From: Patescibacteria group bacterium
GTDB lineage: Bacteria > Patescibacteriota > Patescibacteriia > UBA9934
Length of the DNA stretch: 64,000 bases
Assembly: GCA_049296775.1 (NCBI GenBank)
Contig: JBAQTB010000003.1
Location: 204,766 to 268,765, forward strand
Reading direction: 5' to 3'
The stretch's first letter is position 1, and each line of letters starts with the position of its first letter. The notes under the pieces are model-generated. The model worked only from the letters and a program-made list of their open reading frames with translations. It was not told where the DNA came from and made no database searches. Below, piece by piece: positions 3,391 through 62,676 of this stretch. The translations under genes and the position numbers were made by a program.

Positions 3391-4557
3391 ATGGAAATTT
3401 TATGTCCGAATCATGAGGTCTGTGGCTCTTGCGGCTGGTCACATATCCCCTACCCTAAACAACTCCAGCAAAAACTTTCTGACATTAACGGGTCACTCAA
3501 GATCAAGAATTTGGATTTGCGGGTGAATGAAATCCTGTCAGCGCCAATTACCGAACATTACCGGAATCGCATGGATTTTGTGATTGATTGGCAAGGGGCC
3601 ATGGGACTACGTGAAAAAGGTAAATGGTGGAAAGTTATTGATAATCACCCCTGCTTCTTGGCAGACGAACAGATCGAGAAACTCTTCTCGATCACGCGTG
3701 ATTGGGTGAAGACATCAGGCTTATCGTTTTATGATCGCAAGGCCAACGTCGGTTTGTTGCGTTACGCTGTGATTCGCTCCACCACACTTGGACAAACCAT
3801 GCTCAACATTGTCACCAGTGCACCCAAGGATGCCGATGAAGAAGCACAGACCAAACTCGCGCTAGAACGACTCATCGAACTCGCGGCGCCCACCACGTTG
3901 ATCTGGTCACTTAATCACACCGTCACCGATGTGTCTTTTGGTGACGAGGTGCGTGTCCTGCATGGCCCCGGCACGATTGAAGAACAGATTGGCGGTTACA
4001 AGTACCGGATTTCTCCTAACGCTTTTTTTCAGACGAATCCGCGTGGGGCTGAGTTACTGCTGGATACCGTGCGGGAATTTGCGCTCGGTGATCCGGATGC
4101 CAGAGCTGACCAAACGATCGTCTCTACCACGGGAAAGACGTTATTGGATCTGTATTGTGGATCTGGTTTTTTTGGAGTGGCGCTGGCTAATGATTTTGCT
4201 AAAACCGTCGGCGTTGAACTGGTTCAATCAGCCATCAACGACGCCCGCGTCAATGCTGAATTGAACGGCGTCAATATCGAATTCCATGACGCTAAAACCG
4301 AAGATTTCGATTGGATGAAAATTGGTGCCGACGTGGTTATTCTCGACCCTCCACGCGCCGGGATGCATGACAAAGCCCTCGCTGACGTTATCAGTGCCCT
4401 GCCCGCTAGGATAGTTTACGTCTCCTGTAATTACAAAAACTTTGCCAGAGAAATGGTAGAACTGACCAAATACTACGACGTCGAAGCTATCCGCGCCGTA
4501 GACATGTTCCCCCACACCCCACACGTAGAACTAGTCGCAGCTCTAATGCGGAAATAA
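3391..4557 (+). CDS. Class I SAM-dependent RNA m5U methyltransferase (RlmD/TrmA family) with N-terminal Cys cluster
   Basis: N-terminal CPNHEVCGSCGW Cys cluster, SAM motif DLYCGSGFFGVALA, C-terminal VYVSCN catalytic region. Confidence 0.75.
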   Translation: MEILCPNHEVCGSCGWSHIPYPKQLQQKLSDINGSLKIKNLDLRVNEILSAPITEHYRNRMDFVIDWQGAMGLREKGKWWKVIDNHPCFLADEQIEKLFSITRDWVKTSGLSFYDRKANVGLLRYAVIRSTTLGQTMLNIVTSAPKDADEEAQTKLALERLIELAAPTTLIWSLNHTVTDVSFGDEVRVLHGPGTIEEQIGGYKYRISPNAFFQTNPRGAELLLDTVREFALGDPDARADQTIVSTTGKTLLDLYCGSGFFGVALANDFAKTVGVELVQSAINDARVNAELNGVNIEFHDAKTEDFDWMKIGADVVILDPPRAGMHDKALADVISALPARIVYVSCNYKNFAREMVELTKYYDVEAIRAVDMFPHTPHVELVAALMRK

Positions 4558-9039: not shown

Positions 9040-9159
9040 ACAGAAAAGACATTATTTTTTGATAGCGTACCATTTTTCACGCTGTAATTCGATTCCCCGC
9101 CGCTTACCAGAATAGATAGCTATTTTTTTGTGAGTTTCAAGAGGAAAAAAAGGTGCCGT

Positions 9160-9178
9160 AACCTTGCGTCGTAAAACG
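9160..9178. repeat. 19-bp direct repeat copy 1 (AACCTTGCGTCGTAAAACG) flanking structured element A
   Basis: Second copy AACCTTGCGTCGCAAAACA at 9492-9510 (17/19 identical), 332 bp apart, bracketing element A. Confidence 0.5.
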
Positions 9179-9196
9179 TTTTATTTTACGTATAAA

Positions 9197-9453
9197 CCCC
9201 TCGGGAGGATACTTTCTTTACCAGAAAAGAAAGTATCCAAAGAAACCGCCCCGGCTTTAAGTCTGTCAGGGTTGAAGTTCGGCGTCACTCCGGGCAAACC
9301 TGGAGTTGGTCGAATTATTCCTAAGATTTCAACTTGTCTAGTGGAACCGACCAACACGGGATTTGCTATTCCTACGTTTCCGCCGAACTTCCTGACGAGG
9401 TCATCCCTAACAGACTCCGCCGGGGATCTGCAAACCACCGCTTACCGCCGTGA
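9197..9453 (-). ncRNA. Conserved structured element A (paralog of element B at 26567-26856); candidate novel ncRNA or cis-regulatory leader
   Basis: Shares with B identical blocks (GGATACTTTCTTT-loop-AAAGAAAGTATCC 13-bp hairpin, CAAAGAAA, CTGTCAG/CTGTCGAG, GGGCAAA, GCTATTCCT, CCGAA-TTCCTGA, CCACCGCTTACCGCCGTGA) and helices with compensatory changes; one G-U vs A-C difference weakly favours minus strand. Confidence 0.45.
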
Positions 9454-9491
9454 GTATCGCTCGGCAGCAAATCAGGAACACTTCTGATCTG

Positions 9492-9510
9492 AACCTTGCG
9501 TCGCAAAACA
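9492..9510. repeat. 19-bp direct repeat copy 2 (AACCTTGCGTCGCAAAACA)
   Basis: See copy 1 at 9160-9178. Confidence 0.5.
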
Positions 9511-9599
9511 TTTCTTCTCACCGTTCCTGCCGACAACCTAATCCCTCCTAACGTCGGGATAACACATAAGACGTCGATACCATTAAAACTACGCCATCA

Positions 9600-9725: not shown

Positions 9726-10610
9726 GTGGCACAAGACATCACGCCCGAACAGAGAGATCTCATCGTCAATCGCATCACAACTTCAGCGCGCGAGGCTATT
9801 GATAGCCTCAAGCTCAACGCCGACCAGGCGCGGCTCGTCATCGACAATCCAGACGGCCTCGCCAGGATTGTCGGCGATGTAATACGTAATCTTATCGCCT
9901 TATTTGTGGGCGTTGAGGAGCGCGTCAACAACGAGGCCTGCCTGATGTTAAGTGCAGACGAGGTGGCCAAACTGTCCGCCTGGTACCCCGACTACATCCC
10001 GGAAGGCATCAAGTCCGCGCGCGAGATCCTCGGCAACGACTTCATCTCGCCGGGCGAGATCGAGGCCAGCCGCCCCGGGCTCGTGTATAGCCTCTTGCAG
10101 TGGCAGGAACTCAGTAACAGCGTACCCTCAAAGGAGGTACTCGAATGGTGCCGCGATAACGGCTTCATGCTGGTAGCTGGCCCACCCCGTCCAATGTCGC
10201 TCCTCGAGATCCACGAACTCGACCGCGGCCACCTGCACTCGAAAGAGGCTAACTGGTACGCGGCTGAGAGCGAGGCCTTCGCCAGCTATGACAAGGCGGC
10301 CTGCCGCTGGCTCATGCTGCGCAAGGAGCCCGTGCCTGACTCCATAGAAAAGACCTGGGATGAGCAGCAACAGCTCCTCTCCAGCCTCGAGGTGACGCCC
10401 AACGTCGCCGAGCAGGTCTGGGGCTTGGCCATCTACAAGGCGGTCCGGGGCGTGGGTTTGTTACGGTTCGTATACGTCCGTACGTCGAGTACGGACTCGG
10501 ACGGTAACCGTGTGAGCGTCGGTTGCTTCGACCGGGACGGCACCATTCTCGTCCCCCACTACAATCATTGTCGGTACGACCGCATCGGAATCTCCTCCTC
10601 TCGGAAGTAG
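9726..10610 (+). CDS. Hypothetical protein (higher-GC, C-ending codon cassette gene), GTG start
   Basis: 294-aa ORF, RBS AGAGAGG upstream of GTG; codon third positions strongly C/G biased unlike neighbouring core genes; no known domain recognised. Confidence 0.6.
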   Translation: MAQDITPEQRDLIVNRITTSAREAIDSLKLNADQARLVIDNPDGLARIVGDVIRNLIALFVGVEERVNNEACLMLSADEVAKLSAWYPDYIPEGIKSAREILGNDFISPGEIEASRPGLVYSLLQWQELSNSVPSKEVLEWCRDNGFMLVAGPPRPMSLLEIHELDRGHLHSKEANWYAAESEAFASYDKAACRWLMLRKEPVPDSIEKTWDEQQQLLSSLEVTPNVAEQVWGLAIYKAVRGVGLLRFVYVRTSSTDSDGNRVSVGCFDRDGTILVPHYNHCRYDRIGISSSRK

Positions 10611-10659: not shown

Positions 10660-10700
10660 GATCCCCGCAAACCTAGGTTTGCGGGGATCTTTCTTTTTTT
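10660..10700 (+). terminator. Intrinsic terminator (perfect 14-bp palindrome GATCCCCGCAAACC-TAG-GGTTTGCGGGGATC + T-run)
   Basis: gatccccgcaaacctaggtttgcggggatctttcttttttt. Confidence 0.7.
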
Positions 10701-20791: not shown

Positions 20792-23293
20792 TTACAAACT
20801 TGGGGGTGGAGGCGGTGGGAGTGGCGGGACGGCGGCCGCAGCCTTGGCGGAATAACCGGCCCTGTCCAGAATATCCTTAGCCACCGTGTCTTTATCTTGG
20901 CCGTATTGCAATCTAGAGATCTGCTTTAAGGCTTCAGCCACTTTCCGGCTACCCTCAGCCGGTGGATAGGCCTTCATGGTAAACGGCTTGGCCTGCGCGT
21001 TATCAATAATCATCTTCACGTTCCAGGTGTACATGTCCGTGTTCATCAAGTCCTGACCAGAGAAAGTTGGCTCAAAAACTTTACCCAGAGTTTCAATATC
21101 TTCAGGACCAACCCGCGCTACCATCATGGTACCCACGTTACCCAAAACCGCGTCTCTGATCTCGGTCTTACCATCTCTCACCAACTGGCCCATGTACTGG
21201 TGAGCTAACACCAAGTTTAAGCGATACTTTCTAGCCTCAGACAAAATTGTCGCAATGGACGGTGTAACAAAGTTTTGGAATTCGTCGATATACAAATAAA
21301 AATCTTTACGTTCACTCTCTGGAATATCAGCCCGAGTAAACGCCGCCATCTGCAACTTAGCCACCAAAATCAAACCAAGCAGTGAAGCGTTAACCTCTCC
21401 CGTTTTACCCTTAGACAAGTTCACCAACAAAATCTTCTGGTTATCCATGATGTCCCGGAAATTGAAAGCAGATTTGGATTGACCAATGATATTCCGCATC
21501 ATTTCATTCTCCACAAACCTACCCACCTTAGACACCAAGTACCCCATCATTTCACTCTTGTGATAATCAGAAGTTTTAGCCATTTCATCTTCCCAGAAAG
21601 ATCTAACTAGTGGATCCTTAACCTTAGCGACCCAAGCTTTTTGGAAAGCATCATCAGAAATCATGCGGGGAATCTCCACAATCGTACCGGGATTATTCAC
21701 GTCCGCCATCAAGGTCAACATGTAGTTACGCATTTGGTGCTCAAACATGGGGCCGATCATCTCGGGCGGAAACAGCATGTAAAAAATACTGATCATTTCC
21801 TGAACCGCAAAATCGCGCATGCTTTCATCTGGCGCTTCCAACATGTTCAAGCCCATGGGACGCTCCAAATCTGACGGATTGAAATACACCACGTCATCTA
21901 AACGCTCTTTGGGAATCAAACCCATTAAGTCATCCGCCAAATCGCCGTGAGGATCAATGACAGCCACGCCTTTACCGTTTCTGATATCCTGAATGGCCAT
22001 GTTCTTAATGAACTCGGTCTTACCGGAACCAGTTTTACCAATGATGTACAAGTGACGACGCCGGTCTGAATCTGTCATGTGAATCTCCGTTTTGCGACCT
22101 CTGTAAACGTTAAAGCCAACATGCAAACCGCTGCTAGGAATGTTAATGGGCGCTGGAGCTGTTCTGGCACTCATCCAGCGGATATTCGGCGTTTCGGAAG
22201 TTGGCAAAGGTAAGTGCCACAAACCCGCTAATTCTTCAGTGTTGAGCAAAACCTTATAGCTCGGATTGAAAGTTCTAAAAATAAAACCTTCCATAATGCC
22301 TTTTCTGGAAGATGGGATGCTCTTTTCTAGCGCATTACCGTACTCATAAATGCTGTACTGACCAAACGCCTGTAAGACGTTGGTTAAGTACATTTGCGCC
22401 TCTTCCGTGCTCGCGGCTGAGGCCACGACTCTAATAGTGGTTTCTAGTCCGGCCTTGCTCAGCTTATTCTCAATGCCTTCTAGCATTTTGGTTTCAGCGG
22501 CTGACAATTTACGTTCCCGCAACTTCTCTTTGGCTTTGTCTGCCTGCTCTTTAGAGGCAAATAAACCTGTGGCCGGCTTGCCAGACTTAGCTTGAGCAAA
22601 ACTCATGCCTTGCTGCATATTCCGCACAATCTTGGTACCCAAAGCTCGCCATCCGTTGGCAGCCGGACGAATGACATACTGAATTGCTACGCCGTCACTC
22701 TCTCCAACTTTTGATAAGGCGTTGGTCAAGGCGTTCAGCGGGTCGCCGTCCATCTCCTTGTAAGTCTTGATCGGCAAGATATGCTCGCGTTTAAACTTAA
22801 TGTAACCAGCCACCACCGTACCAAGCGGTGAAAAAATGTTAAAATCTTCAACTGGCTCTACAAAGGCGTCACTCCACTGCGCATGAATCTGCTGCTCCAC
22901 AAATTCCTGATAACGGCGCGGTACAGTCACGTAAAAAGTCACCAATTTTTCATGCGCCACAATCTCTAGCGCAAAGCTATCCGTTCTCCCCACTAACCAA
23001 GCCCATAAACCGCTATCTGGCTTGAGGCCACCAATGGCTGCAAACAAAGTTTCTGCAATCGCAATCTTCTCTTTCACTCCGGCCGCGTTATCATTCTGAC
23101 GGGTATCTTCTTCATTTTTAAACCGTGGAATAGTAATCCGCAAAGTCGTCAAAACGTCTTCACCGCCGCGGGTATGCGCACGCTTAATCAACACGTTCCG
23201 CAAATACCAAAAAGCAAACAAACAACTGAAGCCAATCAGACCAAACGCAATAACCCAGGGTAACAATTCAGCTAACAAAGCTTGGAACGTCAT
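20792..23293 (-). CDS. VirD4/TraG/TraD-like type IV coupling protein (T4CP) family ATPase with N-terminal TM segment
   Basis: Walker A IIGKTGSGKT, DPHGDL, Walker B LYIDEFQNF, C-terminal RKYRLNLVLAHQYMGQL resembling TraG-D_C domain; 833 aa, proline-rich tail. Confidence 0.6.
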   Translation of the reverse strand: MTFQALLAELLPWVIAFGLIGFSCLFAFWYLRNVLIKRAHTRGGEDVLTTLRITIPRFKNEEDTRQNDNAAGVKEKIAIAETLFAAIGGLKPDSGLWAWLVGRTDSFALEIVAHEKLVTFYVTVPRRYQEFVEQQIHAQWSDAFVEPVEDFNIFSPLGTVVAGYIKFKREHILPIKTYKEMDGDPLNALTNALSKVGESDGVAIQYVIRPAANGWRALGTKIVRNMQQGMSFAQAKSGKPATGLFASKEQADKAKEKLRERKLSAAETKMLEGIENKLSKAGLETTIRVVASAASTEEAQMYLTNVLQAFGQYSIYEYGNALEKSIPSSRKGIMEGFIFRTFNPSYKVLLNTEELAGLWHLPLPTSETPNIRWMSARTAPAPINIPSSGLHVGFNVYRGRKTEIHMTDSDRRRHLYIIGKTGSGKTEFIKNMAIQDIRNGKGVAVIDPHGDLADDLMGLIPKERLDDVVYFNPSDLERPMGLNMLEAPDESMRDFAVQEMISIFYMLFPPEMIGPMFEHQMRNYMLTLMADVNNPGTIVEIPRMISDDAFQKAWVAKVKDPLVRSFWEDEMAKTSDYHKSEMMGYLVSKVGRFVENEMMRNIIGQSKSAFNFRDIMDNQKILLVNLSKGKTGEVNASLLGLILVAKLQMAAFTRADIPESERKDFYLYIDEFQNFVTPSIATILSEARKYRLNLVLAHQYMGQLVRDGKTEIRDAVLGNVGTMMVARVGPEDIETLGKVFEPTFSGQDLMNTDMYTWNVKMIIDNAQAKPFTMKAYPPAEGSRKVAEALKQISRLQYGQDKDTVAKDILDRAGYSAKAAAAVPPLPPPPPPSL

Positions 23294-23301
23294 AAGACTG
23301 A

Positions 23302-23808
23302 TTACAGGTCGTTGGATGAAAGTTTAGCCTGCTCCGCCTGATAATCCAGCAGCTTATCTAGCTTAATCTTAGCTTCTTGCCGCAAAAAATATAAATTCAC
23401 GCCCGGGATCATACCTAACCAGGAGCTGACTAACTGCAAAATTTTGTGGGTCTTCACCTTGGCGCCCTGCAACATGGTCTGGACGGTTTTAGCGATCTCC
23501 TCCCCCTTCACCCTGAAGGCCTCACGTTTTGACTCCGGTAACTGCGAATAAATATCCCCCAAATTTTCTGACAAAATATTTTCGATCTCCGTCAAACTCG
23601 GATCTTTAGCGATTTCCGTGGGCTGCGGATCTGAGGCAGAGATGGTGGATTTTACGTTGGCTAAATGCTGTTGATCAACCCTGGGAGTCTCGGTAACTGT
23701 AGCCGCAAACTCTGGTGACTCACCAGATAACTCTAACCCCTGCTCAGGAGAATGAGCAGGGGTTTCAGGATTCAACAAATTAACGCCTTCTTTTCGTTCA
23801 GTAGACAT
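23302..23808 (-). CDS. Hypothetical acidic protein
   Basis: 168-aa ORF tightly packed upstream of T4CP-like gene; no domain recognised. Confidence 0.45.
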   Translation of the reverse strand: MSTERKEGVNLLNPETPAHSPEQGLELSGESPEFAATVTETPRVDQQHLANVKSTISASDPQPTEIAKDPSLTEIENILSENLGDIYSQLPESKREAFRVKGEEIAKTVQTMLQGAKVKTHKILQLVSSWLGMIPGVNLYFLRQEAKIKLDKLLDYQAEQAKLSSNDL

Positions 23809-23845
23809 GCCGATATTTTAGCACAATTTGTGCCAAGATTTCGGC

Positions 23846-25012
23846 TTAGGTAGCTGGAGTCGCCGCTGGCTTTTTAGCGCCCTGCTTTTTCTTCCACATA
23901 ACTCCCCCACCAATGGCGGCAGCTAACAAGAGAACACACACTACAATCACCGCAATTAAGCTGTGAAGAATCGCGGAAATCACAATCGTCACACAGCTCA
24001 GCACAAACGCTACCGCAAAGGTCACCATACCAATCACGCTGCGGCTAATGGTGCCAAAGATCGGCAAGAAGTCTAGAATGATACTAATTGGTCCAAACAA
24101 GGCACTCAAGCCCATCCACATCATGAGGAAACCAACTAAACGCAAGCCCCAAAGTGAAGCGGTGTACTCAGAATGCAGTTTAGCTACGGCTTGATCATGG
24201 CCACCCAAGAAAGCGCGGTACAAAGTGTCGCCCTTAGGAGTCACGTAAGCGTCAATCGAGCTGCCGTTCAACTTACCAAACAATGTACCTTCAAATGGTA
24301 CGGCTAGGGTGCTGTAACTAACGCGGACATCACCTAACTCAGGTGCTGAGTAAGTGCCCGTGGTGCTGTTGCGTACAAAGATAAAAGTCGTCCCATCCAC
24401 CAAACTAGCGTTAGAGGTGAGTGACAAATTTGCCGCCTGCAAACTCAACTGAGTTGGGGCGGGCGCCTTAGCGGCCTGTGGCGAAAAGTTGTACTGCTCT
24501 AGCATAGCGGTTGGTACCGTCTTGCTGGCATCACTAATATCTGCCATGACGTTAGTGTGGCCTTCTGGTACGTGGAACTTGCTGGAATCAGCAGGAGAAT
24601 TAGTCCACTCTTTCTTGTATGAGTAAGTGGTCTCCGTGGTTGATGATCCACCAGTGTTATTTTTGGTAGTTGACGTTGAAGTTTCTACCCAGGCAAAAAC
24701 CTCGACGTTTCTACTCACGCTATAAAATGGACCTGGCTTCAGAAACAGATCATCACCAATCAAGGTGTCAGCTGTCACCGTACCCGTGGCCGATACCAAA
24801 GTACCGTCAGCACCGGTGTTAGCCGCCACGTTGCTAGCCTCAATCACTACCGCTTTCTTAGCTACGTCTGACATGTCAGCCCGACCTTCATTCCAGTACA
24901 AAACTCCAAACGAGGCTAGGAACATTACGATCCCGAACAAAACTCCTTTAATGGAGTTCATGATGCGTTGACCGTAACTGGTTCTGGTGGTCGTGGTATA
25001 GGTGTCTGCCAT
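23846..25012 (-). CDS. Membrane protein with N-terminal TM, Ser/Thr-rich extracytoplasmic region and C-terminal polytopic region
   Basis: Hydrophobic N-terminal helix, TTKNNTGGSSTTETT low-complexity, 3 C-terminal helices; no domain recognised. Confidence 0.5.
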   Translation of the reverse strand: MADTYTTTTRTSYGQRIMNSIKGVLFGIVMFLASFGVLYWNEGRADMSDVAKKAVVIEASNVAANTGADGTLVSATGTVTADTLIGDDLFLKPGPFYSVSRNVEVFAWVETSTSTTKNNTGGSSTTETTYSYKKEWTNSPADSSKFHVPEGHTNVMADISDASKTVPTAMLEQYNFSPQAAKAPAPTQLSLQAANLSLTSNASLVDGTTFIFVRNSTTGTYSAPELGDVRVSYSTLAVPFEGTLFGKLNGSSIDAYVTPKGDTLYRAFLGGHDQAVAKLHSEYTASLWGLRLVGFLMMWMGLSALFGPISIILDFLPIFGTISRSVIGMVTFAVAFVLSCVTIVISAILHSLIAVIVVCVLLLAAAIGGGVMWKKKQGAKKPAATPAT

Positions 25013-25038: not shown

Positions 25039-26454
25039 TTAACGTGATTCGCGTACCCGTTGACCGTCTGCCGTGTCCTCTACCAGCAGCCCAAGTTCAG
25101 CGAGAGTATCCCGTAAACTATCTGATTTGGCAAAGTCTTTGTCCAGACGCGCCTGTTGACGCTCCGCCAAAAGCGCCTCCGCTTCAGCCGAGATTTTCAC
25201 CGGTCTCGCCACAACATCTTCCAGGGCTAGGCCGAGAATCTCATCAAACTTTAGCAAAGTTGCGGCTTTGACTGCACTACTTAACGATTCATTGCCAACT
25301 AATTTCCAGACTAAAGCTAGACCGGTGGTGGTATCCAGATCCTGACTCAAGTGCTCCAAAAATTCGTCCCAACTAGCTTGATCTAGCTCAGTTGGCTGGT
25401 CCCAGCCCCTAACAGTATCGACAAGCTTATCAAGCGCATTCTGCGCCCCCTGAACCGCCTCCCAAGTGAAATTGAGTTTAGATTTGTAATTAGCGCCTAA
25501 GACAAAGTAACGGAAGGCTAAAGCAGAAATACCTTTCGCGGCCAGATCATCCAAACTGTAAGTATTGTTCAACGACTTACTCATCTTGCCACCGTCAATA
25601 AGTAAAAATTCGTTGTGCAACCAGTAATTAGCTTCAAGCACTCCTCTAGCCGCTTCTGCTTGAGCGATTTCATTTTCATGGTGTACCGCAATATGGTCGA
25701 TACCGCCGGTATGCACATCAAACGGTAAACCTAAATATTTTTCCGCCATGGCTGAACATTCAATATGCCAGCCCGGGAAGCCCTTGCCCCAAGGAGAGTT
25801 CCACTCCATGTGGCGTCGTGCAACGACGCCATCCTGAGCGCCGTCGAAGGGTCTCTCACTTGGCGAAAACTTCCACAAGGCAAAATCGCTCGCCTGACGT
25901 TTATCGCCAATCTCTACTCTGGCTCCAGCTGCCTTCTCCGCCATACTCTGACCGGACAGGCGGCCGTAACCCGGCTGCTTGGACGTATCAAAATAAACTC
26001 CGTCGGCAATTTGATAGGTCAAACCCTGATCCTCAATAGCTTTAATCATCGCGATCTGTTCGGCGATATGATCCGTGGCTTTAGGCATGACGGTAGGAGT
26101 CAAAGCGTTTAAGCGCTTTAAATCCGCCATAAATAACTGCGTGTAAGTCTCAGCCACTTCCCAAGCGGTCTTACCTTCACGCTCCGCACCCTTCTCAAGT
26201 TTATCTTGACCTTCATCAGCGTCGCTCACTAAGTGACCGACATCGGTGATGTTCATCACCTGAGTAACTTGATAACCCGATTGCTCAAACACTCTCCGCA
26301 ACGTGTCTGAAAACACGTAAGCTCTAAGATTGCCAATTGAAGCGCGGTCATACACAGTTGGCCCGCAAGTATACAAACCCACGTGCCCAGGCTTGATGGC
26401 CTTAAATTCCTGCTCCTGCCTGCCTAAAGTATTGAAAAGTTTAATTGATGACAT
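25039..26454 (-). CDS. cysS: Cysteine--tRNA ligase
   Basis: HIGH-type CGPTVYDRASIGNLRAYV, KMSKSLNN motif, Zn-binding Cys residues. Confidence 0.92.
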   Translation of the reverse strand: MSSIKLFNTLGRQEQEFKAIKPGHVGLYTCGPTVYDRASIGNLRAYVFSDTLRRVFEQSGYQVTQVMNITDVGHLVSDADEGQDKLEKGAEREGKTAWEVAETYTQLFMADLKRLNALTPTVMPKATDHIAEQIAMIKAIEDQGLTYQIADGVYFDTSKQPGYGRLSGQSMAEKAAGARVEIGDKRQASDFALWKFSPSERPFDGAQDGVVARRHMEWNSPWGKGFPGWHIECSAMAEKYLGLPFDVHTGGIDHIAVHHENEIAQAEAARGVLEANYWLHNEFLLIDGGKMSKSLNNTYSLDDLAAKGISALAFRYFVLGANYKSKLNFTWEAVQGAQNALDKLVDTVRGWDQPTELDQASWDEFLEHLSQDLDTTTGLALVWKLVGNESLSSAVKAATLLKFDEILGLALEDVVARPVKISAEAEALLAERQQARLDKDFAKSDSLRDTLAELGLLVEDTADGQRVRESR

Positions 26455-26566
26455 AGTTACCCCTAGGGTACTAGCAACTGGCGAAGTTGCAAAGAGCCAA
26501 TTGCATGGCCAGTCAAACCCTCAACTTCCCTTCGACATTAAAGCTAATTATCGGCCTACGGCCGCA

Positions 26567-26856
26567 TCCCCTTCCGGGGGAGATACTTTCTTTGTAGGAC
26601 AAAGAAAGTATCCAAAGAAAACCTTTCAAGCTCCCACCTTTAGGTCTGTCGAGACTGAAATTCGTCGTCGCTACGGGCAAAACAAATCCCAACCGATTCT
26701 TTATCGTTCAACTGTACGGACAGATAGACGACCCGTCCGTACAGTTATAGTATCGGCTGGAGTTGTTTTGCTATTCCTTCGCTCTCGCCGAATTTCCTGA
26801 AAACTGTCAGCCTCAACAGACCGCGGTGGGATGCGCTCCACCGCTTACCGCCGTGA
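26567..26856 (-). ncRNA. Conserved structured element B (paralog of element A); lies directly upstream of cysS in minus-strand sense
   Basis: See element A; additional B-specific perfect hairpin ACTGTACGGAC...GTCCGTACAGT; G-U wobble (minus) vs A-C mismatch (plus) in inner helix. Confidence 0.45.
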
Positions 26857-26865
26857 ATAGAGCCG

Positions 26866-26905
26866 ACAACAAAACAGCCGCGCCTTATAAATTAAGGTGC
26901 GGCTG
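26866..26905 (-). terminator. Hairpin + U-run (minus strand) overlapping the stop codon of the anti-sigma-like gene
   Basis: plus strand aacaaaaCAGCCGCgccttataaattaaggtGCGGCTG; 7-bp stem, 17-nt loop. Confidence 0.45.
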
Positions 26906-27524
26906 TGGGGGTGTCTTGGAGTCTATCTAGGCGTAAGTTCATGGCGCGTAAGTATTCGCTCTTGTCAGGCTCTGGCAGGTCTGAAGCTGCAATCCGGTTT
27001 CTCACCGACTCCAGAGCAAGTAAGATCTGATGTTTGAGTCTGGTCTTGATGAGAGTCTTGCCAACTTCATCATTTTTCAAAGCTTTGAATTCAGTCACAG
27101 CGATGTTTAAACTCTCGGTCAAAGCTACGACCATCTCCGGCGTTAAAGTCTGCTCACGCTTGAGCTGATGATTTAATTCCTTCACGCGGCGTTCTAATTG
27201 TTTGGCACGGAATTTAGCGTGTGACTCTGGCGTGTGTTTAAAGTCACCCTGGACTTCCTCAAGGGCCCGCTTCACAGGGTACAGAACATTACCCTCACTC
27301 ACGGCTGGGGCGCTATACGCATACGTACTCAAACCCACAAAACTTCCGACCACCAAAACCAATGACGCAAAAGCAAACCTCAAACTAGGCGCATAGGTCC
27401 GGGTCTGAACTGGACGTAGCTCGGCCTCAAGCACCGCCAAACGCTCTAATAAAGCCTGTTTAAACACAGGATCAGGGCGACTAGCCTTCCGCCAACGAGC
27501 TAATTTTGCTTTTAAGAAAATCAT
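26892..27524 (-). CDS. Putative membrane-anchored anti-sigma factor (by position, co-transcribed with ECF sigma)
   Basis: Start overlaps sigma gene stop (ATGA), single TM helix, coiled-coil C-terminal part; assignment by context only. Confidence 0.45.
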   Translation of the reverse strand: MIFLKAKLARWRKASRPDPVFKQALLERLAVLEAELRPVQTRTYAPSLRFAFASLVLVVGSFVGLSTYAYSAPAVSEGNVLYPVKRALEEVQGDFKHTPESHAKFRAKQLERRVKELNHQLKREQTLTPEMVVALTESLNIAVTEFKALKNDEVGKTLIKTRLKHQILLALESVRNRIAASDLPEPDKSEYLRAMNLRLDRLQDTPTAAP

Positions 27525-28012
27525 ACGTGTTTCTTCATTAGCGCCTTTAACTTCTGCATGGCTCTATGTGTTTCTACCCGGACTGACCCAGTTTGTTTCT
27601 CTAGACTATCGGCGATTTCCTTATATCTGTAGCCCAGCAAGTACTTTTTCTCGATTAACGTGCGTTCATTCGGCTTAAGTTCTGCCATGGCGGCCCGCAA
27701 ATGCTCTAGGTCATCGGCAACCTCAACCGTATGTTTGCCGTCCTCTCCCACCAGGGTGAAAGCCACGTCGTCAACATCGACCGCCTCCTTCTTGTCCCGC
27801 CAGTAGTTAATCACTTTGTTTCTAGCAATGGTCATGATCCAAGCCTTCTCTCCGCGTGTTGGATCAAAATCAGCAAAGGCCTTAAAGGCTGAAACAAAGA
27901 TATCTGCCGTTAGATCTTCAGCAACCGCCTTATTTTGGGATACTCTAAAATATACGAAGCGATAAATCGCATCAAAATGTTTGGTATAGAAAGACGAAAA
28001 GTCACTAGCCAT
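27521..28012 (-). CDS. RNA polymerase ECF-type sigma-70 family factor
   Basis: Region 2 (FDAIYRFVYFRV...) and region 4 helix-turn-helix (YKEIADSLEKQTGSVRVETHRAMQKLK). Confidence 0.85.
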   Translation of the reverse strand: MASDFSSFYTKHFDAIYRFVYFRVSQNKAVAEDLTADIFVSAFKAFADFDPTRGEKAWIMTIARNKVINYWRDKKEAVDVDDVAFTLVGEDGKHTVEVADDLEHLRAAMAELKPNERTLIEKKYLLGYRYKEIADSLEKQTGSVRVETHRAMQKLKALMKKHV

Positions 28013-62605: not shown

Positions 62606-62676
62606 GGACTCGCGGTAAAGGTTTGCCTCATCTGGCCTGTCACCCGATGATGCGGGTTCGAATCCCGCCGAGTCCA
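62606..62676 (+). other. tRNA-like element (perfect acceptor stem and T arm, non-canonical anticodon arm, no encoded CCA) enclosed by an outer 9-bp stem (62592-62600 / 62691-62699)
   Basis: GGACTCG...GCGGG-TTCGAAT-CCCGC-CGAGTCC-A; D arm only 3 bp; no 5-bp anticodon stem with U33/R37 loop could be drawn; outer repeat CCGGAAGTC ... GACTTCCGG. Confidence 0.3.

What the first reader, a model, noticed from the sequence alone, without database searches (positions are those of the whole stretch)
26567..26856. Element B: paralog of element A, directly upstream of cysS and abutting the ECF anti-sigma terminator
B fills nearly the whole cysS / anti-sigma intergenic space. In minus-strand sense its 5-prime conserved block (UCACGGCGGUAAGCGGUGG, then helix GCGGUGG/CCACCGC) begins only ~10 nt after the hairpin and U-run that overlap the anti-sigma stop codon (26866-26905). 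That leaves no room for an independent promoter, so B may be made by read-through or processing, or be transcribed from within the upstream gene. At its 3-prime end (minus sense) come the conserved 12-bp hairpin, then a CCCC-CGGAA-GGGG hairpin, a GGCC-GUA-GGCC hairpin, and GCAACU-UCGCC-AGUUGC. Finally the cysS Shine-Dalgarno (GGGG) lies inside the palindrome CCCUAGGG, 7 nt before the ATG. That layout could support structural control of cysS translation. B also has an extra perfect 11-bp hairpin (ACUGUACGGAC...GUCCGUACAGU) absent from A.
Basis: partly seen in the sequence, partly recalled or inferred. Interest (0 to 1): 0.7.

Follow-up and report, generated by a model that had tools for sequence, protein, structure and literature searches.

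The report
Structured mobile repeat, not cysS leader
The roughly 320-base folded element upstream of cysS is one copy of a non-coding, insertion-polymorphic repeat found in Patescibacteria, and its 3' hairpin motif recurs almost unchanged in several bacterial phyla; it is very unlikely to be a dedicated cysS control leader.

Summary
B (minus strand, about 26553-26856) is a true paralogue of A (about 9197-9453). It folds far better than shuffles, and its long rod is supported by compensatory changes in seven homologues.

The cysS-leader reading fails. Syntenic relatives keep the same gene order but have only 71-88 nt between the anti-sigma gene and cysS, so B is an insertion. A block 12-29 nt before the cysS ATG is conserved in relatives that lack B. 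Other copies sit beside unrelated genes, some at convergent gene ends. A is flanked by a 22-bp duplication of a sequence that is single-copy in relatives. One orthologous locus holds either a full copy or a 105-nt mini copy.

The 3' module (YUUUCUUUG-GNUA-CUUUCUUUG-loop-CAAAGAAAG-UANCC plus GC hairpins) recurs in gut, soil, termite and marine metagenomes and in Burkholderiaceae, Variovorax and Ilyobacter replicons, at 1-23 copies per replicon. Ralstonia strains have empty and filled alleles of one site. The segment upstream of the first tract pairs with the hairpin loop, forming a pseudoknot. The block layout matches the E. coli PIT/TMECO triplex motif. Rfam RF02421 covers only a fragment of the Burkholderia version.

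Best reading: a non-autonomous structured mobile repeat, with the mobilising enzyme unknown.

The parts
26553..26856 (-). Element B: core of the repeat as conserved among seven Patescibacteria homologues (5' block, closing helix, rod, pseudoknot/triplex-type hairpin, two GC hairpins)
   Evidence: 76% identity to A. nhmmer E = 2e-78 against the family profile. Fold z = -9.4. Absent from the same spacer in syntenic relatives.
26838..26856 (-). Nearly invariant 5' block TCACGGCGGUAAGCGGUGG
   Evidence: Exactly two copies in the window, 0.02 expected. The 18-mer CACGGCGGTAAGCGGTGG is identical in A, B, L015, L007, L021, L005 and L019. It is also kept in L117 (identical) and L072 (one change), which were found independently through the 3' motif.
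26825..26830 (-). CCCACC, 5' strand of the helix that closes the rod; pairs with GGUGGG at 26633-26638
   Evidence: Compensatory pairs in the family: CCCGCC/GGCGGG in five copies, CCCACC/GGUGGG in B, CCCCGGC/GCCGGGG in A.
26633..26638 (-). GGUGGG, 3' strand of the helix that closes the rod
26643..26821 (-). Long irregular hairpin ('rod') with conserved internal loops (GGAAUAGCAAA 26767-26777 / UUUGCCCG 26674-26681)
   Evidence: Over the whole element structure (73 pairs, of which the rod contributes most), 92.4% of cells are paired. 20 of 73 pairs changed on both sides, against 10.5 +/- 2 in shuffles (0/500) and 3-8 in slid controls.
26711..26745 (-). B-specific perfect 11-bp hairpin at the tip of the rod
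   Evidence: Seen as a 20-nt insertion relative to A and to all other copies.
26612..26621 (-). First pyrimidine tract UUUUCUUUGG (possible third strand), preceded by AGG, which can pair with CCU in the hairpin loop
   Evidence: The tract is conserved in almost every one of about 120 metagenome loci although it was not part of the search pattern. Pairing between the upstream segment and the loop exceeds permuted controls across the superfamily: 3.89 against 3.17 +/- 0.09. In B the pairing is only 3 bp.
26582..26613 (-). Hairpin GGAUACUUUCUUUG-UCCUA-CAAAGAAAGUAUC (second pyrimidine tract plus purine tract)
   Evidence: Core sequence identical across Patescibacteria, gut, soil, termite and marine metagenomes and Burkholderiaceae, Variovorax and Ilyobacter replicons. 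The base of the stem covaries: GGA/UCC, GGU/ACC, GCU/AGU, GCC/GGU.
26568..26580 (-). GC hairpin 1, CCCC-CGGAA-GGGG
   Evidence: Present in all Patescibacteria copies, with variants (CCUCCCGAGGGG in A, CCCCGGCAGGGG in L021).
26553..26563 (-). GC hairpin 2, GGCC-GUA-GGCC. In most copies it is followed by an A-rich tail.
   Evidence: GGCCGNNAGGCC, GACCGAAGGUC and GGCUGGAGGUC in homologues, followed by UAAAAA, AAAACC or AGAAAAC.
26501..26551 (-). 51-nt tail of uncertain status: part of the insertion or lineage-specific spacer
   Evidence: Absent from the 71-nt spacer of L147. It is bounded by an imperfect direct repeat, TCGGCTCTATT 26856-26866 and TTGGCTCTTTG 26490-26500, which is weak.
26867..26905 (-). 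Native intrinsic-terminator-like hairpin and U-run of the anti-sigma gene; not part of the repeat
   Evidence: Equivalent hairpins overlap the stop codon of the anti-sigma gene in L146 and L147, which lack B.
26464..26478 (-). GTTGCTAGTACCCTA, native cysS-proximal block (candidate -10 TACCCT); not part of the repeat
   Evidence: Nearly identical in L147. TACCCTA is kept in L146 and L148, 12-14 nt before the ATG. Reading it as a promoter is an inference.
9182..9491 (-). Element A with its 39-nt 5' extension (hairpin 9471-9488); paralogue of B
   Evidence: Lies between the two copies of a 22-bp duplication.
9492..9513 (-). Direct repeat 1 flanking A (AAATGTTTTGCGACGCAAGGTT)
   Evidence: 20/22 identical to 9160-9181. 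Relatives L150 and L153 have a single ACGTTTTACGACGCAA at this place and no element.
9160..9181 (-). Direct repeat 2 flanking A (AAACGTTTTACGACGCAAGGTT)

Best explanation
B is one copy of a small, non-coding, non-autonomous repeat that has been inserted between the terminator of the anti-sigma gene and the native cysS expression signals.

The Patescibacteria version is about 300 nt. It consists of:
- a nearly invariant 19-nt 5' block;
- a roughly 190-nt rod that can be deleted;
- a 3' module made of a pyrimidine tract, a second pyrimidine tract paired to a purine tract in a hairpin, one or two GC hairpins, and an A-rich end.

The 3' module is shared, almost letter for letter, with repeats in distant phyla. 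There, the segment upstream of the first tract pairs with the hairpin loop. That gives an H-type pseudoknot in which the first U-tract is placed to lie in the major groove of the UUUCUUU/AAAGAAA helix (U.A-U and C+.G-C triples).

Inferred mechanism. The element spreads through a single-stranded intermediate, either RNA or single-stranded DNA. In that intermediate the rod and the pseudoknotted hairpin must fold. The invariant 5' block and the invariant hairpin sequence are the sites read by an enzyme encoded elsewhere, which is not identified.

At the cysS locus its likely effect is passive. If it is read through from the sigma/anti-sigma operon, it would act as a very stable 3' structure or insulator, as REP and BIME elements do. 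cysS would still be expressed from signals within about 45 nt of its ATG.

Shown: paralogy, fold, covariation, multi-copy state, empty sites, the deletion variant, cross-phylum conservation of the motif, and the pseudoknot complementarity.

Inferred: mobility through a single strand, triplex formation, the trans-acting enzyme, and the effect on neighbouring transcripts.
For: Multi-copy state.
- Two copies lie within 17 kb in the window.
- MAG JAUPWK has three copies and MAG JBBUCB H41-bin178 has two. L072 and L117 came from metagenomes.

Insertion polymorphism.
- The anti-sigma-cysS spacer is 437 nt here, against 71, 88 and 204 nt in syntenic relatives.
- The thioredoxin spacer is 89-177 nt in relatives.
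- A is flanked by a 22-bp duplication of a sequence that is single-copy in relatives.
- The orthologous loci L117 and L005 hold a full copy and a 105-nt mini copy respectively.
- The Ralstonia cobN-cbiE spacer is 22 nt in SL3022 and LLRS-1 and holds a 436-nt element in PSI07. Flanks are 97.6-99.3% identical, and other strains have longer alleles.

Structure under selection.
- Over the whole element structure (73 pairs, mostly rod), 92.4% of cells are paired. 20 of 73 pairs are compensatory, against 10.5 +/- 2 in shuffles (0/500) and 3-8 in slid controls.
- Pseudoknot complementarity is 3.89 against 3.17 +/- 0.09 in permutations, whose maximum was 3.42.

Not gene-specific.
- Neighbouring genes are unrelated, and 4 of 9 copies face a convergent gene.
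- No recurrent neighbouring protein family was found.

Breadth and copy number.
Many matches sit at contig ends.
- There are 1-23 copies per replicon in Caballeronia/Burkholderia, and copies also occur in Ilyobacter, Ralstonia and Variovorax.
- Repeat units are about 300-900 nt and contain no transposase.

Transcription of a relative.
- Rfam RF02421 aligns to the hairpin's 3' arm, the GC hairpin and the tail in Burkholderia.
- That RNA was detected by RT-PCR, and its flanking genes are unrelated (PMC3521395).
Against: - No mobilising enzyme was found.
- No autonomous partner element was found in about 160 loci.
- Terminal inverted repeats are absent or only 5-6 nt in the Patescibacteria copies. 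The Proteobacterial relatives do have long imperfect ones.
- A clean target duplication is seen only for A. B has at best an imperfect 11-nt repeat, and other copies have none.
- The strand cannot be fixed from wobble pairs: 20 G.U against 14 A.C cells. The sense strand folds better in only 5 of 7 copies.
- Strong compensatory evolution and near-invariant blocks would also fit a cellular non-coding RNA with several paralogous genes.
- In Patescibacteria the pseudoknot complementarity is only 2-4 nt.
- Only 64 kb of the home genome was available, so its true copy number is unknown.
Confidence: 0.62

Rival explanations
1. B and A are genes for a family of structured non-coding RNAs with a cellular job (trans-acting or scaffold RNA) that happen to be duplicated. 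The conserved 5' block and the pseudoknotted hairpin would be binding sites for a host protein or RNA.
For: - Extensive compensatory change in the rod.
- Near-invariant 19-nt and hairpin sequences.
- The sense strand is more stable in 5 of 7 copies.
- The Burkholderia relative is transcribed and was proposed to be trans-acting (PMC3521395).
- Most copies follow a co-directional gene, so they can be transcribed.
Against: - Presence/absence varies at orthologous sites in close relatives.
- Up to 23 near-identical copies occur per replicon, and matches cluster at contig ends.
- The rod can be lost while the copy persists (L005).
- There is no conserved promoter upstream.
- Distribution is patchy: 1-2 copies at different loci in Ralstonia strains.
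Confidence: 0.2
2. B is a cis-acting leader of cysS (riboswitch, T-box-like or thiol-sensing) that controls translation through the hairpins near the Shine-Dalgarno sequence.
For: - B is in the sense orientation upstream of cysS, and A is upstream of a thioredoxin-like gene, so both downstream genes are thiol-related.
- There is no promoter-like site between B and the terminator.
- In several relatives from other phyla a gene starts 70-220 nt after the hairpin.
Against: - B is absent from the cysS spacer of syntenic relatives, which are 71-88 nt.
- The cysS-proximal block is conserved without B.
- Other copies lie upstream of an RluA-like gene or face convergent genes.
- No Rfam hit at E <= 10.
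- No terminator/antiterminator or sequestering helix links B with the Shine-Dalgarno palindrome, which is native sequence.
- Orientation relative to the downstream gene is about 12 sense against 7 convergent overall, which is not different from chance.
Confidence: 0.04
3. The element acts at the DNA level. The Py-Py-Pu blocks would form an intrastrand triplex or cruciform, or would bind a protein, and so serve as a recombination, replication or nucleoid-organisation signal, like the PIT/TMECO motifs of E. coli.
For: - The block layout is the same as TMECO, read on the complementary strand: CCCTCNCCC-N3-6-GGGNGAGGG-N3-GGGNGAGGG (PMC4666352).
- G.U and A.C counts are nearly symmetric.
- Loci that contain TMECO are unusually rearranged in E. 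coli (same paper).
- Inverted outward-facing pairs occur in Proteobacteria.
Against: - Pairing between the upstream segment and the loop, and rod covariation, require a single strand to fold.
- The paper found no stable triplex in vivo for TMECO.
- Nothing here tests protein binding.
Confidence: 0.1

Closest known systems
Structured intergenic repeats of bacteria (BOX of Streptococcus pneumoniae, ERIC/IRU, Correia/NEMIS, REP/BIME; MITE-like elements)
   Same: - Small, non-coding, multi-copy and intergenic.
- Strongly folding.
- Modular, with internal insertions and deletions: the full and mini copies recall boxB number variation and the long and short ERIC forms.
- Insertion-polymorphic between relatives.
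- Can lie inside operons and after terminators.

The descriptions of those families are from my own knowledge.
   Different: - No sequence similarity to any of them.
- Patescibacteria copies lack clear terminal inverted repeats and a fixed target duplication.
- The 3' module is conserved across phyla, which is unusual because these families are normally genus-specific.
- No partner transposase is known.
PIT / TMECO potential intrastrand triplex motif of Enterobacteria (Holder et al. 2015, PMC4666352)
   Same: - Three 9-nt blocks: two of one kind and one complementary.
- Loops of 3-4 and 3-9 nt.
- Intergenic, many copies, extraordinary sequence identity.
- No association with particular genes, and copy number differs between close strains.
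   Different: - The blocks are CUUUCUUUG/CAAAGAAAG (T.A-T type), not CCCTCNCCC/GGGNGAGGG.
- Here there is an extra covarying pairing between the upstream segment and the loop.
- Here the motif is the 3' module of a 300-900-nt element.
- Absent from E. coli.
Rfam RF02421, Burkholderia sRNA Bp1_Cand684_SIPHT (Khoo et al. 2012, PMC3521395)
   Same: - The model's first 45 positions align to the 3' arm of the hairpin, the GC hairpin and the tail of the Burkholderia/Caballeronia copies.
- The RNA was reported as transcribed, as widely distributed, and as flanked by unrelated genes.
   Different: - The model is a truncated piece: it lacks the pyrimidine tracts, the pseudoknot and the rod.
- The Burkholderia copies score 32.6-37 bits, below the gathering score of 44.
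- B and A do not match it even at E <= 10.
Triple-helix H-type pseudoknots (telomerase RNA, SAM-II/SAM-V and preQ1-II riboswitches)
   Same: The topology matches: stem 1 (upstream segment with loop), a U-rich loop 1 able to lie in the major groove of a U-A-rich stem 2, and a short loop 3. The description of those RNAs is partly from my own knowledge; PMC6061858 (abstract as listed) describes the SAM-V fold.
   Different: - No ligand-type gene association.
- Multi-copy and mobile.
- The triplex is only predicted here.
- An alternative 14-bp extended hairpin is also supported by covariation.

Membership tests
T-box / aminoacyl-tRNA synthetase leader | Match to the T-box covariance model (stem I with specifier loop, T-box sequence) | tested here: not met
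   No T-box hit in 26400-26950 even at E <= 10, and none at gathering score in the window.
T-box / aminoacyl-tRNA synthetase leader | Terminator/antiterminator or Shine-Dalgarno-sequestering switch directly upstream of the regulated gene | tested here: not met
   No intrinsic terminator on the minus strand between B and cysS. The Shine-Dalgarno palindrome lies in native sequence outside the repeat.
Riboswitch or other gene-specific cis-regulatory leader | Conserved association with one functional class of downstream genes, and presence in orthologous leaders | tested here: not met
   Absent upstream of cysS in four relatives, three of which (L146, L147, L149) keep the anti-sigma-cysS adjacency. 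Copies lie beside unrelated genes, and 4 of 9 face a convergent gene.
MITE (miniature inverted-repeat transposable element) | Small, non-coding, several copies per genome | tested here: met
MITE (miniature inverted-repeat transposable element) | Presence/absence polymorphism at orthologous sites | tested here: met
   Patescibacteria; Ralstonia
MITE (miniature inverted-repeat transposable element) | Terminal inverted repeats | tested here: inconclusive
   Patescibacteria copies have only about 5-6 nt (ACGGC...GCCGU). Proteobacterial relatives have long imperfect inverted ends or outward-facing pairs.
MITE (miniature inverted-repeat transposable element) | Target-site duplication of fixed length | tested here: inconclusive
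   A has a 22-bp duplication, backed by single-copy empty sites. B has an imperfect 11-nt repeat. None was found for L007, L021, L072, L117 or Ralstonia L160.
MITE (miniature inverted-repeat transposable element) | Related autonomous insertion sequence with matching ends | tested here: not met
   No repeat unit longer than about 900 nt and no transposase next to the motif in the fetched loci. Whole genomes were not searched.
IS200/IS605-derived elements (PATE) or TnpB/IscB guide RNA | Adjacent tnpA, tnpB or iscB in at least some copies; conserved target tetranucleotide at the left end; match to known guide-RNA families | tested here: not met
   No such gene in the loci. The 5' flanks end in CT, TT, CG or TG only. 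No Rfam hit.
PIT/TMECO intrastrand triplex motif | Three blocks (Py, Py, Pu, or the complement) of about 9 nt with loops of 3 and 3-6 nt | tested here: met
   CUUUCUUUG-GNUA-CUUUCUUUG-N3-9-CAAAGAAAG, compared with the consensus quoted in PMC4666352.
PIT/TMECO intrastrand triplex motif | Block sequence CCCTCNCCC/GGGNGAGGG | tested here: not met
   The blocks here are A/T-type. There is no match in 5,426 E. coli genomes.
PIT/TMECO intrastrand triplex motif | Actual triplex formation | not testable with these tools
   Needs CD, NMR or UV melting, or chemical probing.
Rfam RF02421 (Bp1_Cand684) | Score at or above the gathering threshold of 44 bits | tested here: not met
   B and A give no hit at E <= 10. 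Burkholderia relatives score 32.6-37 bits.
6S RNA | Single rod closed by the 5' and 3' ends with a large central bubble; match to the 6S models | tested here: not met
   No Rfam hit. The rod is internal and is flanked by further domains.

The most novel reading that the evidence does not exclude
The elements may be bacterial SINE-like retroposons. A read-through transcript would be recognised at its 3' triple-helix pseudoknot and hairpins by a reverse transcriptase encoded elsewhere, then copied into new sites by target-primed reverse transcription.

Observations this would explain:
- a sharply defined, conserved 3' end with variable or mosaic 5' parts;
- the A-rich tail after the last hairpin in 7 of 8 Patescibacteria copies;
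- T-rich upstream flanks;
- the long 22-bp target duplication of A, which begins with AAA, and the apparent 39-nt 5' extension carried by A;
- co-orientation with upstream genes;
- selection on the fold of one strand.

A triple-helix pseudoknot next to a templating region is also the hallmark of telomerase RNA (my own knowledge). Reverse transcriptases are common in this phylum: a DGR with an RVT_1 reverse transcriptase sits next to homologues of the gene beside A.
Probability: 0.1. Interest if true: 0.9.

Novelty: new variant of a known kind. Interest (0 to 1): 0.55.

Why it matters
For this window, the result removes a tempting but wrong annotation. cysS in this Patescibacteria genome does not have a 400-nt regulatory leader. 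It has a repeat inserted upstream of its own signals.

More broadly, the work links three things that had not been connected:
- the two paralogues in this window;
- an Rfam 'sRNA' known only from Burkholderia (RF02421);
- hundreds of intergenic repeats in gut, soil, termite and marine bacteria.

All three share a 45-nt pyrimidine-pyrimidine-purine pseudoknot motif that is conserved almost to the letter across phyla, while the rest of each element is lineage-specific. A repeat module held this constant across Patescibacteria, gut-metagenome bacteria (taxon not determined), Fusobacteriota and Pseudomonadota implies a conserved partner. That partner could be an enzyme that moves the elements or a host factor they exploit.

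The motif also gives a concrete handle for finding that partner: culturable Ralstonia and Caballeronia strains with empty and filled alleles. In addition, it offers a natural candidate for an RNA or DNA triple helix in bacteria.

Tried and rejected
- **Rfam.** I searched at gathering score on the window and on 20 related loci, and at E <= 10 on B and A. This gave only chance-level hits (microRNA, CRISPR-DR, isrC).
- **Viral contigs.** Neither the 5' block nor the hairpin pattern matched. The phage collection also had no match.
- **TnpB/IscB guide RNA or IS200/IS605 end.** I considered this because the flank diverges right after the motif. I rejected it because no such gene occurs in the loci and the repeat units are only 300-900 nt.
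- **Protein-coding origin.** Rejected: the indels between A and B are 20, 6, 4, 8, 3 and 1 nt.
- **The 294-aa gene next to A as a transposase.** Rejected. Its family lies beside bAvd and RVT_1 in L158/L159, so it is a DGR target family, and it has no homologue next to other copies.
- **Recurrent neighbouring protein.** The only cross-taxon cluster was ABC-transporter ATPases, which is a chance result for so common a family.
- **Strand assignment from wobble pairs.** Inconclusive: 20 G.U against 14 A.C.
- **Target duplications around the other copies.** None found. There is no clean one in Ralstonia either.
- **Orientation relative to the downstream gene.** About 12 sense against 7 convergent, which is not informative.
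- **Literature searches.** Searches for the motif sequence and for Patescibacteria repeats found no description. Two 2026 preprints on intergenic elements do not mention it.
- **Look-up of the paralogue P0242.** It failed because no exact record exists.
Full report
**1. The observation**

The window comes from a Patescibacteria (CPR) metagenome-assembled genome. The CysS protein is found identically on a Logan contig and in an NCBI MAG named 'Patescibacteria group bacterium'.

On the minus strand the order is sigma factor (27521-28012), DUF5667 anti-sigma-like protein (26892-27524), then a 437-nt spacer, then cysS (25039-26454). These are the terminator-like hairpin over the stop codon, the 19-nt block 11 nt after the U-run, the B-only 11-bp hairpin, the 12-14-bp hairpin, the two small GC hairpins, the GCAACU/AGUUGC hairpin and the CCCUAGGG palindrome.

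The 19-mer occurs twice in the window, against 0.02 expected. The second copy belongs to element A (about 9185-9460, minus strand), which aligns with B at 76% identity with indels that are not multiples of three. Both fold far better than shuffles, with z = -9.4 and z = -7.1. No Rfam family matches, even at E <= 10.

**2. Relatives in Patescibacteria**

I scanned one genome per species with the 5' 18-mer. The only true homologues were in Patescibacteria MAGs: L015 and L007 in one MAG, and L021, L005 and L019 in another. The other 15 hits were chance matches with no further similarity. A metagenome scan with the hairpin pattern added two more full copies, L072 and L117.

The seven full copies share one architecture:
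- the 5' block;
- a helix CCCNCC/GGNGGG that closes a rod of about 190 nt, which carries conserved internal loops;
- a U-tract;
- the hairpin GGNUACUUUCUUUG...CAAAGAAAGUANCC;
- CCCC-loop-GGGG;
- a GGCC-type hairpin;
- an A-rich end.

The consensus structure is 92.4% paired. 20 of 73 pairs changed on both sides, against 10.5 +/- 2 in column shuffles (0 of 500 reached the observed value) and 3-8 when partners were slid. So the fold of a single strand is under selection.

Which strand is only weakly indicated. There are 20 G.U cells against 14 A.C cells, and the sense strand is more stable in 5 of 7 copies.

L005 is a 105-nt 'mini' copy in which the 5' block is joined almost directly to the hairpin. 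It lies at the locus orthologous to that of the full copy L117. The rod and the first U-tract are therefore dispensable for persistence.

**3. It is an insertion, not the cysS leader**

Relatives with CysS 74-77% identical keep the same neighbourhood (DnaJ, hypothetical, sigma, anti-sigma, cysS, TMEM43-like, VirD4-like). However, the anti-sigma-cysS spacer is 71 nt in L147 and 88 nt in L149. In L146 it is 204 nt and is filled by an unrelated palindromic repeat.

In L147 the spacer consists of the terminator hairpin followed by ...CCAACTTTTACGGTTGCTAGTACCCTATATCCAACTATG. The window has ...GCAACTTCGCCAGTTGCTAGTACCCTAGGGGTAACTATG. So the block with TACCCT, 12-17 nt before the ATG, and the small hairpin before it are native cysS-proximal sequence, and B lies upstream of them. 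I read TACCCT as a candidate -10 element. This is an inference: the consensus scan did not call it.

The context of the nine Patescibacteria copies is heterogeneous. A precedes a thioredoxin-like gene, B precedes cysS and L015 precedes an RluA-like gene. L021 lies between two co-directional genes, starting 4 nt after a stop codon. L072, L019 and the L117/L005 locus face the 3' end of a convergent gene.

**4. The A locus gives an empty site and a duplication**

In relatives L150, L151 and L153 the thioredoxin gene is preceded by a spacer of 89-177 nt. In L150 and L153 that spacer holds one copy of ACGTTTTACGACGCAA. In the window this sequence occurs twice, at 9492-9513 and 9160-9181 (20 of 22 identical). 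Both copies share the lineage-specific extension GGTT, and they bracket element A.

This is a 22-bp duplication of the target. The bracketed segment (9182-9491) includes 39 nt upstream of the 5' block, with a small hairpin. No comparable duplication was found around the other copies. B has only an imperfect 11-nt repeat.

**5. The 3' module is a cross-phylum motif**

The metagenome scan required only UACUUUCUUU-N3-9-AAAGAAAGUA-N1-6-CCC. Almost all hits also carry, directly upstream, a second YUUUCUUUG tract that was not part of the pattern. They carry GC hairpins downstream, and similarity ends abruptly after those. Many hits lie at contig ends, as expected for repeats that break assemblies.

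The samples are from human gut, soil, termite gut, marine water and groundwater. In the plasmid collection the motif occurs:
- 6-23 times per replicon in most Caballeronia/Burkholderia chromids;
- 6 times in Ilyobacter pILYOP01;
- 1-2 times in Ralstonia, Variovorax and Paraburkholderia.

It is absent from phages and from E. coli.

The base of the hairpin covaries (GGA/UCC, GGU/ACC, GCU/AGU, GCC/GGU). The 3-6 nt just upstream of the first tract are complementary to the 5' part of the loop: UGCC/GGCA, UGUG/CACA, UCGCC/GGCGA, CCGCC/GGCGG, GCUGC/GCAGC. Across 74 distinct instances the mean longest complementary run is 3.89. When loops are permuted among instances it is 3.17 +/- 0.09, with a maximum of 3.42 in 200 permutations.

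The topology is an H-type pseudoknot. Its loop 1 is the first U-tract, running parallel to the purine strand of a UUUCUUU/AAAGAAA helix. That is the geometry needed for U.A-U and C+.G-C triples. This is an inference and nothing here tests it.

The block layout (Py, N3-4, Py, N3-9, Pu) is, on the complementary strand, the layout of the E. coli TMECO/PIT motif, CCCTCNCCC-N3-6-GGGNGAGGG-N3-GGGNGAGGG. That motif is also intergenic, multi-copy, highly conserved and of unknown function (PMC4666352).

**6. What the relatives look like**

- **Size and content.** Repeat units are about 490 nt in the gut type and 480-900 nt in another metagenome type. Both have a rod-like hairpin with compensatory changes upstream of the motif, mosaic 5' parts, and no open reading frame for a transposase.
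- **Arrangement in Proteobacteria.** Units often occur as outward-facing inverted pairs 320-440 nt apart (L143, L144, L114, L124, L119, L137, L092, L145).
- **Ralstonia alleles.** In Ralstonia solanacearum PSI07 a 436-nt element fills the spacer between the cobaltochelatase gene and cbiE. In strains SL3022 and LLRS-1 the same spacer is 22 nt, with flanks 97.6-99.3% identical. Other strains have longer alleles.
- **Rfam fragment.** RF02421 (Bp1_Cand684) aligns to the 3' arm of the hairpin, the GC hairpin and the tail of the Burkholderia copies at 32.6-37 bits, against a gathering score of 44. That RNA was detected by RT-PCR in B. pseudomallei. It was reported in several phyla with unrelated flanking genes (PMC3521395).
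- **Neighbours.** No protein family recurs next to the motif apart from ABC ATPases, which I regard as chance.

**7. Interpretation**

The simplest account of all the results is a non-autonomous, structured mobile repeat. It has lineage-specific bodies and a shared 3' module, and B is one insertion of it.

Selection on the fold of a single strand points to a single-stranded RNA or DNA intermediate, or to RNA-level activity. So do the sharply defined 3' end and the variable 5' end. The mobilising enzyme is unknown.

At the cysS locus the element would at most be part of the 3' untranslated region of the sigma/anti-sigma transcript, where it could act as a barrier or stabiliser. That is by analogy with REP elements, from my own knowledge.

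Rivals that remain:
- a paralogous cellular non-coding RNA family (0.2);
- a DNA-level triplex or protein-binding signal (0.1);
- the cysS leader (0.04).

The most novel reading not excluded is a SINE-like retroposon recognised at its triple-helix pseudoknot (0.1).

**8. Novelty and score**

The kind of thing, a structured intergenic repeat, is known, and a fragment of the Burkholderia version is in Rfam. Three things appear to be undescribed in the sources I could search:
- the Patescibacteria family, with its 5' block and rod;
- the full motif with its pseudoknot;
- the cross-phylum conservation of that motif.

I rate it a new variant of a known kind, with interest 0.55.

Noticed in passing
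window 9726-10610 (+) and 10660-10689: A 294-aa gene lies between the FecR-like gene and element A and is missing at this place in syntenic relatives. Its family (about 260 aa, Patescibacteria-wide, with a 61%-identical paralogue in the same genome) occurs in L158/L159 as two tandem copies next to bAvd and an RVT_1 reverse transcriptase. That makes it a likely target family of a diversity-generating retroelement. Many members sit on contigs of about 1.2 kb. A perfect 30-nt palindrome follows its stop codon. The window holds no reverse transcriptase, Avd or template repeat.
   Followed up: partly
window 9160-9175; L150 and L153 upstream of the thioredoxin-like gene: ACGTTTTACGACGCAA is conserved upstream of the thioredoxin-like gene in relatives at 83-85% protein identity. 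It may be an operator or promoter element of the divergent FecR-like/thioredoxin pair.
   Followed up: no
window 9062-9072 and 26464-26478: Similar boxes, GGTACGCTAT upstream of the thioredoxin-like gene and AGTACCCTA upstream of cysS, lie 12-25 nt before the start codons. They are candidate -10 elements (TACNCT) and imply very short leaders in this lineage.
   Followed up: partly
window 9097-9115 (minus strand): CTGGTAAGCGGCGGGGAATCG, downstream of A, repeats part of the 5' block (GGTAAGCGG). It may be a remnant of another copy.
   Followed up: no
L019 about 1950-2050 and L021 about 3400-3480 (minus strand): In MAG JAUPWK two copies share a further conserved module of about 70 nt after the last hairpin (GGTCGAGRAA..CATAGYGG...CTCGGATCCTTCGCCGTC.CTC.GGATGGGGAGCT). 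L019 lacks the rod and the standard hairpin.
   Followed up: no
L146 2797-3000: The anti-sigma-cysS spacer of this relative holds a different palindromic repeat rich in TTAGC/GCTAA units. The same site has therefore been hit by another element.
   Followed up: no
L160 2700-3135, L162 700-723, and hits H40-H65: The cobaltochelatase-cbiE spacer of the Ralstonia solanacearum species complex has at least three allele sizes: 22 nt, 436 nt, and 180-450 nt more than that. The filled allele supplies its own AAGGA ribosome-binding site for cbiE.
   Followed up: partly
L143 1942-2046 and 2530-2630: The Rfam model RF02421 starts in the middle of a hairpin, so it is a truncated description of a larger repeat.
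   Followed up: yes
window 62606-62676 (+): A tRNA match that barely reaches the gathering score (29.7 against 29 bits), unlike the two other tRNAs in the window (61-63 bits). It may be an atypical or interrupted tRNA gene.
   Followed up: no
window 20792-25012 (minus strand): Downstream of cysS lie a TMEM43-like membrane protein, a small ORF and an 833-aa VirB4/VirD4-like ATPase (DUF87, TraG-D_C, TrwB). This order is conserved in all the syntenic relatives.
   Followed up: no
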